Shown here: in pieces, positions 2,808-5,800 of the stretch | Position numbering within the stretch: position 1 is the stretch's first letter | Layout: every line of letters begins with the position of its first letter | Assembly: GCF_037042905.1 (NCBI RefSeq) | Contig: NC_087261.1 | Coordinates: forward strand, 24,490,001-24,554,000 | From: Lytechinus pictus | Taxonomy: Eukaryota | Direction: 5' to 3' | DNA: 64,000 nt | Program-made: the position numbers

Positions 2808-5800
2808 ATATATACATATATATATATGTGTGTGTGTGAGGTGGTGTGTGTAATTTCATAAACACCTACAATAAACAAAACCAATCAAATATAGATAACT
2901 GTTAGATGAATTAGAAGATAAATGTACATAACATGACAAAGCAGGAACAAGTCAAAAATACACAAAAAGCTCAATTATGTTGTGGCAGACAAAATACTAT
3001 ACATAAATCTGAGAAAAGGGATTGAAGTTCGCGTTCCAATCCCATGCAAAGTAGGCTTCTATTTAAGACGTCCTTGTTTTACTCAATCTTGTCAATACAA
3101 ATCAGTTCAATCCATCAAACAGTATGGATCTCGGTTCCGGTGTCTTCCAAATCACCGATAATGTTCATGATATTACGTATTTATCATACATTGCATTGGA
3201 GTACGAATTCTTTTTAAAGTCCTGAATTTTCTTTCTTTTAGGAGCCACTTTGGGCTTCATTCCATTGTGTTTTGGTTGTACTTTCCTGTGACCAACGACG
3301 TATGTATCAGCTGCACCTCGTCCACCCTCATTGACGCGTTCATTCGCCGTTTCGTCCACCCGTTCGTTGTTGCCTTCTGAGGTCATTACCTCATAGAGAG
3401 TTTCAATGGTTTGGACTTGTCGACCAGTCTTTTCGTCTGATGAATGATTATTTATAAGATTGACATACGTGTGTTTCTTCAGATCTAACTCATTGTCATT
3501 CGTTACGGCGCCCGGCGGCATTCGAGGTTCGTTCCCTTTTGAGGTTTTAGTCGCGCTTGCGCCCATCGGGAGGTATGTATGGTAGGTGTTTGCGTCCCTC
3601 GCCTTTCGATTATTTTCGATTTTGGTCATATAAAGTGGTTTATTGGCCAAAACATTCAGATCGACGTCAGGCTCGGCTACGGAAGCCTCCTCGAGGTTGG
3701 CGTAGTCATTCACCGATTCGCTGATCGACGTGGCGTAGTCATGTTCAATCTGGCAGTACCCGACGGTGTCGTGTCGCGTCGGGTTCTCAGTGGCAACGGT
3801 GTAGTGATGGTGAGATAAGCCGGGTGATGGTGGGTTACCCGTCGGCATGGCTTGGCCGACTGCGTCGTAATCATCCTCGTCACCGTTGTCGAGCTCGAGG
3901 TAACCAGAATCCGATCCATTAGGAACATCGGCCAGACTACCGCTAGAGACCTGTACCATTAGGATGCCGAGTGACGGTGAGTCTGGGGGTCTACCACGGG
4001 TATGAGCAGGGGAACGGATATCTTCTGTGTCTGGTGTGGTATACAGATGAGAAAGAACTTCGCGCCCTGACTCCATAGGTTTCTTTCTGCGTCTGAAAAA
4101 AAAATCAACCATAAAATTGAAGAACGAATAAATCAAAACAAATTTCTTGTTCGATTGACGGATTATAAAATAAGTCACCAAAATAAAACAAACATAAAAT
4201 GGAAAAGTCAAAATAAGCTGCCCATTGCAATGGCAGTCCGTGGAGTTTGTCATTGAACATTATTCCCTGGCTGGGCAGCTAGTTTCGCCAATATTCGTCA
4301 GCCAAGGTTCTTAAAATAGATGTCGGTACCATCGAGATGTTTGCCAGAAACCCCCATCAAATACCCCAGTCAGCTCATGGATGTCTGCGAAAGGTACTAG
4401 GGAGCTTTTGCTTCCAAGACGCACGACGTATTCACAAACATAGAAAATGTATTGTCAAACGCTCTTCATGACAATGAACAACCAAGAAGTCTTTGTCGAA
4501 AATTGGTGAATCAACACAGCAGTTTAATAATAATAATAATAATCCGCATTTATATAGCGCTTAACACATCGGAACGACGTCTCTAAGCGCTTTACAGATA
4601 TATTATTACCCCGGTCATCGGATCCTTGCATGCCCGCATACAATGTATGCACCTTCTCCACTCCCTGGGGAGCATTCCAACAAGAGTTCCAAGACTCAAT
4701 TGCTAGGCATACTACATAGGCTTTCGCATCCTACCGGGTACCCATTTAACACCTGGGTGGAGAGTGGCAAATTGTGGATTGACGCCTTGCCAAAGGACGC
4801 TAGGCCATGGTGGGATTCGAACACACGACTCTCTGATTACAAGGCGAGAGTCAGAACCGCTACACCACGGCGTTTCGTCCTGGACTCTTGACAAACGACA
4901 TATGTGCAATTTTTTGTCAGCTCCGAAACTGCTGTTCCGGTTCACCAATTTTCGACAAAGACCTCCAAGCTGTTCATTGTAATTAATCGGGTATTTTCAA
5001 TATATTTGCTGTGTTTTTTGATATTAAAGTTGAGGGTAATGGCATCTATTTTGTCCAATCTTAACCCACCCCTCAGTCAGACATGTGCGCAAATGTTTAT
5101 AACAAATATATCAGTGGATCGGCGTTATTAAAACCAAGAAGATATTGGGGCAACTAGCAAATTTGAAACACAAAACTTTGATACCCACTTCTGATCGGCC
5201 AAATATCAAGAGTATTTTTTTCTTCGGCATCAAACGCGTTCAAAAGTAAAGATTCGATCACTGGTCCAGAACGCATATATTGTACATTATTAGAATTTCT
5301 GTCGCTGAAACAAAATGACAATTCAGATTTTGTTCACTTTGTCCATTCTCGGTGTTTTCTTTTAAACTTACTTAATAGTACGAATAGGGGGGGGGGGTCC
5401 TACAAAGTTGAATTTCAATCTGAATATGTATATCACTCAGAATTTGTTCTATCACCAGCAGTAGCATAATTAGTCACAATTTTGAGGGAGCCAATAGTGG
5501 CATAGGGGGCAAACATTTCTAATAAGCTGCGAGCGCGCAAAAGTGTTGGCCTGGGGTCCGTTGCAGAAAGAGTTGCGTTTAAACGCAAGTCAAAATATCA
5601 ATCGCAAGTCCCAAATGCGCGCTGTTGATTGGTTAAAAATCAAGTTGCGCATGATTTTTGAAGTTGCGTTTGATTGCAACTTTTTCTGCAACGGGCCCCT
5701 GGTCTTGTTAATACATACATTCAAATATTGCAATGTGTTTTTTACATAAAATTTAGAAAATGAAAGCATATTTCATTATTGTCCTTTTCTTTATTTTTTA

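What the first reader, a model, noticed from the sequence alone, without database searches (positions are those of the whole stretch)
3168..4050. Gene A tail uses a different SH2 code: Grb2, PI3K and Nck sites plus one ITAM-like pair
Seen: DSG-YLEL-DNGDEDD-YDAV (7-aa spacer, ITAM-like with Val in the last position, 3858-3911); YANL, YVNL, YSNA (YxN, Grb2 consensus); YLPM, YEVM (YxxM, PI3K p85); YDAV (Nck-type); YTTP (YxxP); VGYCQI and SGYLEL (ITIM-like). Gene B has almost none of the YxN/YxxM type. Inference: functional division between the paralogues, with A as a LAT/CD19-like adaptor and B as the ITAM/ITIM chain.
Basis: partly seen in the sequence, partly recalled or inferred. Interest (0 to 1): 0.68.

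Follow-up and report, generated by a model that had tools for sequence, protein, structure and literature searches.

The report
Sea urchin CUB receptor's tyrosine-docking tail
The region is the last exon of an uncharacterised sea urchin membrane receptor; its floppy inner tail carries 16 tyrosines that never change between urchin species, most simply read as docking sites for signalling adaptors, though nobody has tested this.

Summary
Window 3165-4092 (minus strand) is the last exon of a 7-exon Lytechinus pictus gene: signal peptide, three CUB domains, stalk, one membrane span and a 309-residue tail.

In the single sequence the motif counts are barely above chance (any class: 9 observed, 4.95 expected, P=0.028). 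Conservation is the real evidence.
- All 16 of 16 tyrosines are invariant in 4 echinoid sequences whose tails are only 51-54% identical (other residues 106 of 293; P=2e-7).
- There is no Tyr-to-Phe change.
- The defining residues of 3 YxN, 2 YxxM, YDAV and YTTP are kept in 4 of 4.

The ITAM-like pair and both ITIM-like sites are not conserved.

The contrast with gene B is real. B has 15 of 21 Tyr as YxxL/I and no YxN or YxxM. The two tails are not homologous, so calling them paralogues is weak.

The tail has no relatives outside echinoids (1.84 billion representatives searched). It matches no Pfam family and is predicted disordered.

Best reading: a lineage-restricted, non-kinase CUB receptor whose tail is a multi-site phosphotyrosine scaffold, analogous to CDCP1, CD19 or LAT. 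Phosphorylation, partners and expression are untested. It is a new member of a known kind.

The parts
3165..4092 (-). Gene A last exon. It encodes the whole cytoplasmic tail (309 residues counting the split Arg codon) plus stop TGA at 3165-3167.
   Evidence: Open frame; acceptor AG at 4093-4094 behind a T-run. 88% identical over 309 residues to residues 442-750 of L. variegatus LOC121430918.
4032..4043 (-). YTTP (Tyr18), inside the invariant block VLSHLYTTPDT; YxxP type
   Evidence: identical in 4 of 4 sequences.
3858..3911 (-). DSG-YLEL-x7-YDAV. YDAV (Tyr76, Nck-type YDxV) is invariant. YLEL (Tyr65) keeps Tyr and +2 Glu, but +3 varies L/L/F/Y.
3747..3758 (-). YCQI (Tyr113). Tyr and a +3 Ile/Val are kept; the ITIM -2 position is not (V/A/G/A).
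3693..3704 (-). YANL (Tyr131), YxN type
   Evidence: Tyr and +2 Asn in 4 of 4.
3564..3584 (-). YHTYLPM (Tyr171, Tyr174). YLPM is a YxxM type and is invariant.
3456..3467 (-). YVNL (Tyr210), YxN type, inside the conserved block KKH(T/A)YVNL
   Evidence: identical in 4 of 4.
3384..3395 (-). YEVM (Tyr234), YxxM type
   Evidence: YE(V/A)M in 4 of 4.
3168..3203 (-). C-terminal cluster YSNAMYDKYVIS (Tyr298 YxN type, Tyr303, Tyr306)
   Evidence: all three Tyr and the Asn are kept in 4 of 4.
3228..3257 (-). Polybasic block KPKVAPKRKK (residues 280-289; KPKVAPKRK is invariant); role unknown
5957..6050 (-). Gene A membrane-span exon (..GFMIPMLSGIGVAVLLILVSTLTISCYCVR + AG of a split Arg codon). It lies 17 bases from the N run 6069-6210 but is intact.
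   Evidence: Sequence with AG acceptor 6051-6052 and GT donor 5955-5956; hydropathy scan; 94% identity to P0002.
7309..7400 (-). Gene A stalk exon (ENIVTPIPKLESSESFPDTDGSSTDNNDS); ends approximate
   Evidence: tblastn of P0002 residues 366-445.
7740..8090 (-). Gene A CUB3 exon
   Evidence: Pfam CUB E=8.9e-8; 98% identity to P0002.
8363..8749 (-). Gene A CUB2 exon
   Evidence: Pfam CUB E=6.1e-14; 93% identity to P0002.
13686..14015 (-). Gene A CUB1 exon
   Evidence: Pfam CUB E=1.9e-4, 22.2 bits against cutoff 21.4; 95% identity to P0002.
14893..14970 (-). Gene A first coding exon (signal peptide MFRLT..CMATAK)
   Evidence: tblastn, 92% over 26 residues.
24763..26926 (-). Gene B last exon (722-residue tail), given as context. 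21 Tyr, 15 of them YxxL/I, none YxN or YxxM.
   Evidence: 100% identity to L. pictus LOC129279872; motif counts.
27490..27595 (-). Gene B membrane-span exon. It ends in AG, with the same split Arg codon as gene A.
29995..30345 (-). Gene B single CUB exon
   Evidence: Pfam CUB E=1.4e-5; tblastn.

Best explanation
**What is shown.** Gene A (window 3165-14970, minus strand, 7 exons) is the L. pictus orthologue of two uncharacterised proteins: L. variegatus LOC121430918 and S. purpuratus LOC576610. It is a type I membrane protein with a signal peptide, three CUB domains outside the cell, a short stalk, one membrane span followed by a basic stop-transfer cluster, and a 309-residue tail predicted to be disordered.

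**What is inferred.** The tail is a non-catalytic, multi-site phosphotyrosine docking scaffold. The proposed sequence of events is:
1. An unknown ligand engages the CUB ectodomain and clusters the receptor.
2. A cytoplasmic tyrosine kinase, most likely of the Src family, phosphorylates the conserved tyrosines.
3. The phosphorylated motifs recruit SH2 adaptors according to their +1 to +3 residues:
   - three YxN sites for a Grb2/Drk-type adaptor (Ras-MAPK);
   - two YxxM sites for the PI3K regulatory subunit;
   - YDAV for Nck, and YTTP for Crk-type adaptors (actin).

The other nine invariant tyrosines have no assignable reader. The ITAM- and ITIM-like readings are not part of this explanation.
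For: **Gene model**
- All seven exons map to P0002 at 88-98% identity.
- The membrane-span exon ends in AG and the tail exon begins with A. This restores an in-frame Arg and gives ..SCYCVRRRRKKPMESG...
- Pfam CUB matches all three CUB exons, with three stretches in P0002 (E=1.1e-27).
- The AlphaFold2 model of P0002 gives three beta-sandwiches, pLDDT about 70-87. Its best Foldseek matches are cubilin, PCPE-1, enteropeptidase and neuropilin.

**The tail as a linear-motif region**
- 0 Pfam families and no PDB match in the tail.
- Mean pLDDT 34.7; 307 of 309 residues are below 50. Mean hydropathy is -0.97.

**Selection focused on tyrosines**
- The tail diverges faster than the ectodomain. Tail: 52% window to S. 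purpuratus. Ectodomain: 74% L. variegatus to S. purpuratus.
- Even so, 16 of 16 Tyr are invariant, against 106 of 293 other residues (P=1.9e-7).
- None of the 16 sites shows Tyr-to-Phe in any of the 3 other sequences, while Leu/Phe/Tyr exchanges occur at neighbouring +3 positions.
- Conservation is concentrated at -2 to +3 around Tyr (43 of 73 against 63 of 220, P=4e-6). All.
- The specificity-defining residues (3 Asn, 2 Met, Asp and Val of YDAV, Pro of YTTP) are all invariant.

**Motif meanings from papers**
- Grb2 SH2 reads pY-X-N-X and PI3K SH2 reads pY-X-X-M (PMC3787023, abstract in the search listing).
- Phosphorylated YDXV motifs act with Nck (Blasutig 2008; title only, seen in a reference list).

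**Readers and writers in echinoderms**
- Grb2, PLC-gamma, Cbl, SFK1, SFK3, Csk and Syk transcripts are reported in sea-star eggs (PMC11593052, passages).

**Precedent**
- CDCP1 is a CUB-domain membrane glycoprotein phosphorylated by Src-family kinases (PMC4395315, abstract in the listing).
Against: - There is no direct evidence of tyrosine phosphorylation, of any binding partner, or of where the gene is expressed.
- In the single sequence the motif classes are not individually beyond chance (P=0.03-0.68).
- The conservation sample is small: 4 sequences, all echinoids. Two are congeners at 88% identity and one (P0004) is an unnamed fragment, so there are about three independent lineages.
- Tyr is in general a slowly changing residue. 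In gene B's tail 16 of 21 Tyr are invariant against 337 of 704 other residues (P=0.009), so part of the effect is generic.
- Seven of the 16 sites also fit YxxPhi sorting signals.
- Acidic residues just upstream of Tyr, which many tyrosine kinases favour, are not enriched. By my reading of the table, 7 of 16 Tyr have Asp or Glu at -3 to -1, and my own arithmetic expects about 6.
- SH2 specificities are taken from vertebrate domains. That urchins have Nck and p85 is recalled, not shown by any search.
- The low pLDDT may partly reflect the 4-row alignment.
Confidence: 0.6

Rival explanations
1. The conserved tyrosines are mainly unphosphorylated trafficking signals (YxxPhi motifs read by clathrin adaptor complexes). 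They would control endocytosis and sorting of a CUB cargo or co-receptor, as in other CUB or LDLa scavenger-type receptors.
For: - Seven of 16 Tyr fit Yxx[LIMFV]: YLEL, YDAV, YCQI, YANL, YLPM, YVNL, YEVM.
- The nearest solved relatives of the ectodomain include the endocytic receptor cubilin.
Against: - Sorting signals do not need Asn at +2, yet all three YxN Asn are invariant.
- Nine invariant Tyr lack a hydrophobic +3.
- +3 of YLEL drifts to Phe/Tyr while the Tyr stays.
- From general knowledge, one or two such signals per tail are usual, not 16.
Confidence: 0.15
2. The tyrosines, with their flanks (including a recurrent His-x-Tyr), are contact residues for a phosphorylation-independent partner or for self-association of a disordered tail ('stickers'). 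SH2 domains play no part.
For: - His sits at -2 of five Tyr, all kept in 4 of 4 sequences (5 observed against 0.62 expected; nominal P=6e-5, family-wise P=0.033). No SH2 class that I know reads this.
- Nine Tyr fit no SH2 consensus.
Against: - Aromatic stickers normally tolerate Phe, but there is no Tyr-to-Phe change at 16 sites in 3 comparisons, and only 1 Phe and 0 Trp in 309 residues.
- The kept +2 Asn and +3 Met fit known SH2 codes.
Confidence: 0.15
3. The motif list is pattern-matching on a Tyr-rich, low-constraint tail and has no specific function.
For: Single-sequence shuffles give P=0.03-0.68 per class. With six or more motif classes, nearly any Tyr matches something.
Against: 16 of 16 Tyr are invariant at 51-54% tail identity (P=1.9e-7), and all eight specificity-defining residues are kept.
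Confidence: 0.05
4. Gene A is itself an ITAM/ITIM immunoreceptor chain: YLEL-x7-YDAV recruits a Syk-type tandem-SH2 kinase, and VGYCQI or SGYLEL recruit SHP-type phosphatases.
For: - The Tyr65-Tyr76 distance of 11 residues fits ITAM spacing in 3 of 4 sequences.
- Both Tyr are invariant.
- A Syk transcript is reported in a sea star (PMC11593052, passages).
Against: - Strict ITAM count is 0.
- +3 of the first half is L/L/F/Y, the second half has Val, and the spacing is 9 in P0004.
- The ITIM -2 and +3 positions are not kept.
Confidence: 0.04

Closest known systems
CDCP1 (CUB domain-containing protein 1, Trask/CD318)
   Same: - A type I membrane glycoprotein with a CUB-type ectodomain and a non-catalytic tail.
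- Its tyrosines are phosphorylated by Src-family kinases, which then recruit an effector (PMC4395315, abstract in the listing).
- It is the nearest match in how the protein would work.
   Different: - No tail homology: phmmer over 1.84 billion representatives returned only 2 echinoid hits.
- The CDCP1-specific CUB profile PF23665 matches only profile positions 10-52 of 115, at 18.2-28.3 bits around its cutoff of 27.
- No CDCP1 chain appears among the 40 Foldseek matches listed (ranks 1-50).
- The motif set here is YxN/YxxM/YDxV. CDCP1's stated partner is PKC-delta.
Multi-site phosphotyrosine scaffolds: LAT, CD19, BCAP, Gab1
   Same: A disordered region with several YxN and/or YxxM sites that gathers Grb2 and PI3K. 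LAT and CD19 details are recalled. BCAP recruiting GRB2 and other SH2/SH3 proteins is from the title of PMC6937578 in the listing.
   Different: - No sequence relationship.
- LAT has almost no ectodomain (recalled), whereas gene A has about 400 residues of CUB domains.
- CD19 has an Ig ectodomain (recalled).
- BCAP and Gab1 are cytosolic.
Nephrin
   Same: An adhesion-type membrane protein that signals through cytoplasmic YDxV motifs that can be tyrosine-phosphorylated (PMC11247170, abstract start in the listing). The Nck link comes from the Blasutig 2008 title.
   Different: - Ig/FnIII ectodomain (recalled).
- Three YDxV sites against one here.
- No homology.
Vertebrate CDCP2 (fish 'CUB domain-containing protein 2')
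   Same: The closest named non-echinoid proteins to the ectodomain by sequence: 24-30% identity, E from 2.8e-9 to 5.7e-6. It also has three CUB domains.
   Different: The example read (P0012) ends inside its membrane span and has no cytoplasmic tail. The similarity is at the level of generic CUB domains.
Gene B of the same window (L. pictus LOC129279872)
   Same: - Tandem neighbour on the same strand.
- Same plan: signal, CUB, stalk, membrane span, one large last exon for a long Tyr-bearing tail.
- The same AG|A split Arg codon at the span/tail junction.
   Different: - One CUB instead of three, and a tail of 722 residues instead of 309.
- No tail similarity (E=0.077).
- Opposite motif repertoire.

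Membership tests
CUB domain proteins (Pfam PF00431) | Profile match above the curated cutoff (21.4 bits) | tested here: met
   Window exons score 22.2, 52.7 and 32.9 bits. L. variegatus orthologue P0002: 97 bits in 3 stretches.
CUB domain proteins (Pfam PF00431) | Beta-sandwich fold resembling solved CUB domains | tested here: met
   Tested on the orthologue P0002, not on a joined window model. pLDDT is about 70-87 over residues 25-381. Top Foldseek hits are cubilin (E=6.6e-19) and PCPE-1 (E=2.6e-17).
CDCP1 family | CDCP1-specific CUB profile (PF23665) matched along its length above cutoff 27 | tested here: inconclusive
   18.2 bits (window CUB2 exon); 25.4 bits for P0002 and 28.3 bits for P0003. 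These cover only profile positions 10-52 of 115.
CDCP1 family | Cytoplasmic tail homologous to the CDCP1 tail | tested here: not met
   phmmer of the tail against 1.84 billion representatives gave 2 hits at E<=0.001, both echinoid. The word-seeded search of longer proteins gave 2 of 1446 candidates, both echinoid.
CDCP1 family | Phosphorylation by Src-family kinases and effector recruitment | not testable with these tools
   Needs biochemistry.
ITAM-bearing chains | YxxL/I, 6-8 (loosely 6-12) residues, YxxL/I | tested here: not met
   0 strict matches. The Val-tolerant pair reads YLEL/YLEL/YQEF/YHEY plus YDAV, with Tyr-Tyr distance 11/11/11/9.
ITIM-bearing receptors | [S/I/V/L]xYxx[I/V/L], kept in orthologues | tested here: not met
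   Two matches in the window. But VGYCQI has V/A/G/A at -2, and SGYLEL has L/L/F/Y at +3.
Grb2-type docking sites (pYxN) | Tyr with Asn at +2, conserved | tested here: met
   3 of 3 sites keep Tyr and Asn in 4 of 4 sequences. Binding itself is not tested.
PI3K p85-type docking sites (pYxxM) | Tyr with Met at +3, conserved | tested here: met
   YLPM and YE(V/A)M are present in 4 of 4 sequences. Binding itself is not tested.
Nck-type docking sites (pYDxV) | Tyr-Asp-x-Val, conserved | tested here: met
   YDAVGQ is invariant in 4 of 4 sequences. Binding itself is not tested.
LAT-type transmembrane adaptors | Very short ectodomain (feature recalled) | tested here: not met
   The ectodomain has three CUB domains plus a stalk, about 400 residues.
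LAT-type transmembrane adaptors | Juxtamembrane Cys for palmitoylation (feature recalled) | tested here: inconclusive
   SCYC precedes the basic cluster in the window and in L. variegatus; S. purpuratus has SCYF. Palmitoylation cannot be tested here.
Paralogy of gene A and gene B | Detectable sequence similarity beyond generic CUB | tested here: inconclusive
   - Tails: none (E=0.077).
- CUB exons: 25-30% identity, E from 5e-5 to 2e-4.
- The shared split-codon intron position favours common origin.
- No tree was built.

The most novel reading that the evidence does not exclude
Genes A and B are a tandem, echinoid-specific two-chain phosphotyrosine module built on CUB ectodomains, with a division of labour.
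- B carries 15 YxxL/I sites, including an ITAM-spaced pair that is kept in S. purpuratus. It would recruit Syk- or SHP-type tandem-SH2 enzymes.
- A would be their substrate scaffold, distributing the signal to Grb2, PI3K and Nck.

This would be a convergent counterpart of vertebrate immunoreceptor plus LAT/CD19 systems. Such a pair would also be a candidate for the still-unknown surface component upstream of Src-family kinases and PLC-gamma in echinoderm cells such as eggs or coelomocytes.
Probability: 0.1. Interest if true: 0.75.

Novelty: new member of a known kind. Interest (0 to 1): 0.4.

Why it matters
- If the tail is phosphorylated as inferred, sea urchins have a lineage-restricted, kinase-less CUB receptor that wires an unknown extracellular cue to Ras-MAPK, PI3K and actin adaptors through short motifs alone.
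- It is a clean natural example of a tail that diverges to about 50% identity while every tyrosine and every specificity residue stays fixed.
- It sits beside a neighbour with the complementary YxxL/I repertoire.
- L. pictus is, to my recollection, a genetically tractable urchin, so the prediction could be tested by knock-out and Tyr-to-Phe alleles.
- Upstream membrane components of Src-family and PLC-gamma signalling in echinoderm egg activation are stated to be incompletely known (PMC11593052, abstract in the listing). Nothing here links this gene to eggs.

Tried and rejected
**Searches on the tail that found nothing**
- Pfam: 0 families.
- PDB sequences: all 22 matches lie in the ectodomain, residues 40-380.
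- ESM Atlas by features: no usable hit, and no structure held.
- Internal repeats: BLASTP of the two halves gave best E=0.70.
- Homology to gene B's tail: best E=0.077.

**Deeper orthologues with a tail**
- The Diadema setosum model P0009 (426 aa) stops before the membrane span.
- P0010 is a multi-CUB, cubilin-like fragment with no span or tail, so I rejected it as an orthologue.
- The fish CDCP2 example P0012 has no tail.

**Provenance and names**
- The listing of cluster members answered that its database is switched off. The origin and names of P0004 and P0007 stay unknown, and I did not pursue them.

**Literature**
- The six gene and protein identifiers gave 0 papers in about 8.4 million.
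- A search for sea urchin with ITAM, ITIM and coelomocyte listed 10 of 12 papers, none about these genes by title or abstract start.
- A search for S. purpuratus with SH2 domain, Nck, Grb2 and p85 listed 8 of 137 papers, none containing the species term.
- A term search in PMC7337045 found none of my six motif terms.

**Other**
- A look for a membrane span or tail of the upstream Ig-exon gene in 33600-40400 found nothing clear.
- Complex prediction was not used, because phosphorylated tyrosines cannot be represented.
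Full report
**Source and limits.** The window is sea urchin DNA, not human. The last exon of gene B translates to a protein 100% identical over 721 residues to Lytechinus pictus LOC129279872. Four N runs (6069-6210, 32067-32224, 35727-35858, 45082-45254) were left untouched. All searches with window sequence were made exon by exon or ORF by ORF. Anything that needed a full-length protein used the public L. variegatus orthologue as the tool returned it.

**The observation.**
- The minus-strand frame 3168-4259 is open for 364 codons.
- The exon begins at 4092, behind a T-run and AG (4093-4094), and ends at stop TGA 3165-3167.
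This includes DSG-YLEL-DNGDEDD-YDAV at exactly 3858-3911, YANL, YVNL, YSNA, YLPM, YEVM, YTTP, VGYCQI and SGYLEL.
- The tail has 16 Tyr, 1 Phe and 0 Trp in 309 residues.

**Is it more than chance in one sequence?** Hardly. In 20,000 shuffles:

| Class | Observed | Shuffle mean | P |
|---|---|---|---|
| YxN | 3 | 1.25 | 0.12 |
| YxxM | 2 | 0.47 | 0.07 |
| YxxP | 1 | 1.07 | 0.68 |
| YxxL/I | 4 | 1.34 | 0.034 |
| ITIM-like | 2 | 0.56 | 0.11 |
| Val-tolerant ITAM-like pair | 1 | 0.13 | 0.11 |
| Strict ITAM | 0 | 0.04 | 1.0 |
| Any class | 9 | 4.95 | 0.028 |

With this many motif classes, most tyrosines match something.

**The gene.** tblastn of the L. variegatus protein P0002 onto the window gives seven minus-strand exons:

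| Exon | Window coordinates | Identity to P0002 |
|---|---|---|
| Signal peptide | 14893-14970 | 92% |
| CUB1 | 13686-14015 | 95% |
| CUB2 | 8363-8749 | 93% |
| CUB3 | 7740-8090 | 98% |
| Stalk | about 7309-7400 | 69% over a hit that runs into the intron |
| Membrane span | 5957-6050 | 94% |
| Tail | 3168-4094 | 88% |

- The membrane-span exon ends in AG before GT and the tail exon starts with A. The splice therefore restores an Arg and reads ..LVSTLTISCYCVRRRRKKPMESG.., a span followed by a basic stop-transfer cluster.
- Pfam finds CUB in all three CUB exons, with three stretches in P0002 (E=1.1e-27).
- An AlphaFold2 model of P0002 (9-row alignment) gives three beta-sandwiches at pLDDT about 70-87 and nothing confident after residue 381.
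- Its best Foldseek matches are cubilin, PCPE-1, enteropeptidase, neuropilins, C1s/MASP and Neto2. By sequence the nearest solved chains are cubilin, PCPE-1 and neuropilin-2.
- The ectodomain is therefore a generic triple CUB.

**The tail has no relatives outside echinoids.**
- phmmer of the tail exon against 1.84 billion representatives gave 2 hits at E<=0.001: P0002 (L. variegatus, 88%) and P0004 (an unnamed 310-residue fragment, 51%).
- The word-seeded search among longer proteins gave 2 of 1446 candidates: P0002 and P0003 (S. purpuratus LOC576610, 52%).
- All named hits are 'uncharacterized protein'.
- The tail matches 0 Pfam families, nothing in the PDB and nothing usable in the ESM Atlas.
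- It has no internal repeat (E=0.70).
- It is predicted disordered: mean pLDDT 34.7, with 307 of 309 residues below 50. The alignment has only 4 rows, so part of the low confidence may be lack of depth.

**Conservation is the decisive evidence.** In the 4-sequence alignment A1:
- 122 of 309 tail columns are invariant.
- All 16 of 16 Tyr are invariant, against 106 of 293 other residues (Fisher P=1.9e-7).
- There is no Tyr-to-Phe change at any site, although Leu/Phe/Tyr exchanges occur at adjacent +3 positions.
- Columns -2 to +3 around Tyr are invariant in 43 of 73 cases, against 63 of 220 elsewhere (P=4e-6).
- The tail evolves faster than the ectodomain. The tail is 52% identical between the window and S. 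purpuratus. The ectodomain is 74% identical between L. variegatus and S. purpuratus.

Per motif, in the order window, L. variegatus, S. purpuratus, P0004:

| Site | Readings |
|---|---|
| YTTP | x4 |
| YDAV | x4 |
| YANL | YANL/YANL/YANF/YENY |
| YVNL | x4 |
| YSNA | YSNA/YSNA/YENA/YMNA |
| YLPM | x4 |
| YEVM | YEVM/YEVM/YEAM/YEAM |

- Every specificity-defining residue is kept: three Asn, two Met, the Asp and Val of YDAV, and the Pro of YTTP.
- By contrast YLEL reads YLEL/YLEL/YQEF/YHEY, and the Tyr65-Tyr76 distance is 11/11/11/9.
- The -2 position of VGYCQI is V/A/G/A.
- The ITAM-like and ITIM-like readings are therefore not conserved.
- Caveat: four sequences amount to about three lineages, all echinoid.

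**Gene B and the 'division of labour'.**
- Gene B runs 24763 to about 33520 on the minus strand. Its parts are one CUB exon (29995-30345), a stalk, a span (27490-27595) and a tail (24763-26926).
- The script counted the cytoplasmic part as 725 residues, starting at HKKKR in the span exon. It holds 21 Tyr.
- 15 of them are YxxL/I (shuffle mean 2.46; 0 of 5000 shuffles reach 15). There are 0 YxN, 0 YxxM and 0 YxxP.
- There are two ITAM-spaced pairs. YNEI-x6-YQPL is kept with the same spacing in S. purpuratus. YNLL-x8-YQEI becomes YNVL-x11-YQEL there.
- 16 of the 21 Tyr are invariant in 3 sequences (P=0.009), with one Tyr/Phe and one Tyr/Cys exchange.
- The contrast with A is significant at a modest level. 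YxN or YxxM: 5 of 16 against 0 of 21 (P=0.010). YxxL/I: 4 of 16 against 15 of 21 (P=0.008).
- 'Paralogues' is weak. The tails are not similar (E=0.077) and the CUB exons are 25-30% identical.
- What the two genes share is tandem position, architecture, and the same AG|A split Arg codon at the span/tail junction.

**Mechanism.**
- Shown: a type I CUB x3 membrane protein with a fast-evolving, domain-free tail in which selection is concentrated on tyrosines and their flanks.
- Inferred: the tyrosines are phosphorylated by a cytoplasmic kinase and read by SH2 adaptors.
- Motif meanings come from papers. Grb2 reads pY-X-N-X and PI3K reads pY-X-X-M (PMC3787023, abstract in the listing). YDXV acts with Nck (Blasutig 2008, title only, seen in a reference list).
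- Nephrin signals through three YDxV motifs (PMC11247170, abstract start).
- Echinoderms express the needed machinery: Grb2, PLC-gamma, Cbl, SFK1, SFK3, Csk and Syk in sea-star eggs (PMC11593052, passages).
- That urchins have Nck and p85 is my recollection only.
- The absence of Tyr-to-Phe changes argues for a role of the hydroxyl group, that is phosphorylation, rather than mere aromatic contacts.
- Nine invariant Tyr fit no SH2 class that I know.

**Comparison with known systems.**
- It would work most like CDCP1, a CUB-domain membrane glycoprotein phosphorylated by Src-family kinases (PMC4395315, abstract), or like CD19, BCAP and Gab-type multi-site scaffolds.
- It is not demonstrably a CDCP1 family member. 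The CDCP1-specific profile matches only 43 of 115 positions at 18-28 bits around the cutoff of 27. The tail is unrelated. No CDCP1 chain appears among the 40 fold matches listed (ranks 1-50).
- It is not a LAT-type adaptor, because it has a large ectodomain.
- The nearest named non-echinoid ectodomains are fish CDCP2 (24-30% identity, E from 2.8e-9 to 5.7e-6). The example I read has no tail.

**In print?** The six gene and protein identifiers occur in 0 papers of the library. Searches on sea urchin ITAM/ITIM and on S. purpuratus SH2 partners listed nothing about these genes. Supplementary tables (phosphoproteomes, single-cell marker lists) were closed and may hold relevant rows.

**Verdict.**
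- Gene A is a new, lineage-restricted member of a known kind: a kinase-less receptor with a phosphotyrosine docking tail.
- Confidence in the gene model and the conservation pattern is high. Confidence in the SH2-docking mechanism is about 0.6.
- Interest is moderate at 0.4. It would rise if A and B prove to be co-expressed partners.

Noticed in passing
window 3456-4049 (-), gene A tail residues 16-213: His sits at -2 of five tyrosines (HLYTTP, HHYTVA, HDYATS, HTYLPM, HTYVNL), and all five are kept in 4 of 4 sequences. Observed 5 against 0.62 in shuffles (nominal P=6e-5; family-wise over offsets and residues P=0.033). I know of no reader or kinase preference that explains it.
   Followed up: partly
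window 3228-3257 (-): The invariant polybasic block KPKVAPKRK(K) lies near the C-terminus of the gene A tail. With VLSHLYTTPDT it is one of the longest invariant stretches. It could be a membrane-lipid contact or a nuclear-import-like signal; I did not test either.
   Followed up: no
window 5957-5975 (-) and 27490-27515 (-): Both genes have Cys at the cytoplasmic end of the membrane span, just before the basic cluster: SCYCVRRRR in A and VVCAYHKKKR in B. S. purpuratus A has SCYF. These are possible palmitoylation sites, by inference only.
   Followed up: no
gene A CUB exons 7740-8090, 8363-8749, 13686-14015 (-): The three CUB domains are nearly Cys-free: one Cys in CUB1 and none in CUB2 or CUB3, read from P0002 and the ORFs. 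To my recollection, typical CUB domains have two disulfides.
   Followed up: no
window 24763-26926 (-), gene B tail: - 15 of 21 Tyr are YxxL/I (shuffle mean 2.46; 0 of 5000 shuffles reach 15).
- There are two ITAM-spaced pairs. YNEI-x6-YQPL is kept in S. purpuratus. YNLL-x8-YQEI has x11 there.
- YQPL occurs three times, two of them in a repeated YQPLSRPAS unit, which suggests internal duplication.
   Followed up: partly
window 3165-14970 (-): No protein identical to the window's gene A was returned in the tail searches, whereas gene B's L. pictus protein was returned. One search covered only proteins of 542-2000 residues and one search lists one representative per 50% cluster. I therefore cannot tell whether gene A is annotated in L. 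pictus.
   Followed up: no
window 39974-45000 (-) and 50356-61139 (-): Further upstream on the same strand lie five Ig-like exons (Pfam ig/V-set/I-set/Ig_3, best E=3.5e-8). Beyond them are exons with Laminin_G_3 and Mucin2_WxxW matches (best E=2.5e-13) and more Ig-like ORFs. These look like one or more other surface-protein genes. I found no membrane span or tail for the Ig gene in 33600-40400.
   Followed up: partly
window 20375-21475 and 45005-45900: There are long simple-repeat tracts that translate to runs of T, L, Y and S in several frames. The second one borders an N run. GC skew peaks at 0.40 in 20001-22000.
   Followed up: no
window 4715-4996 (-) and 9218-9601 (+): Two ORFs share a similar stretch (..ATLHPGV..), one on each strand, inside gene A introns. 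This is probably a dispersed repeat element.
   Followed up: no
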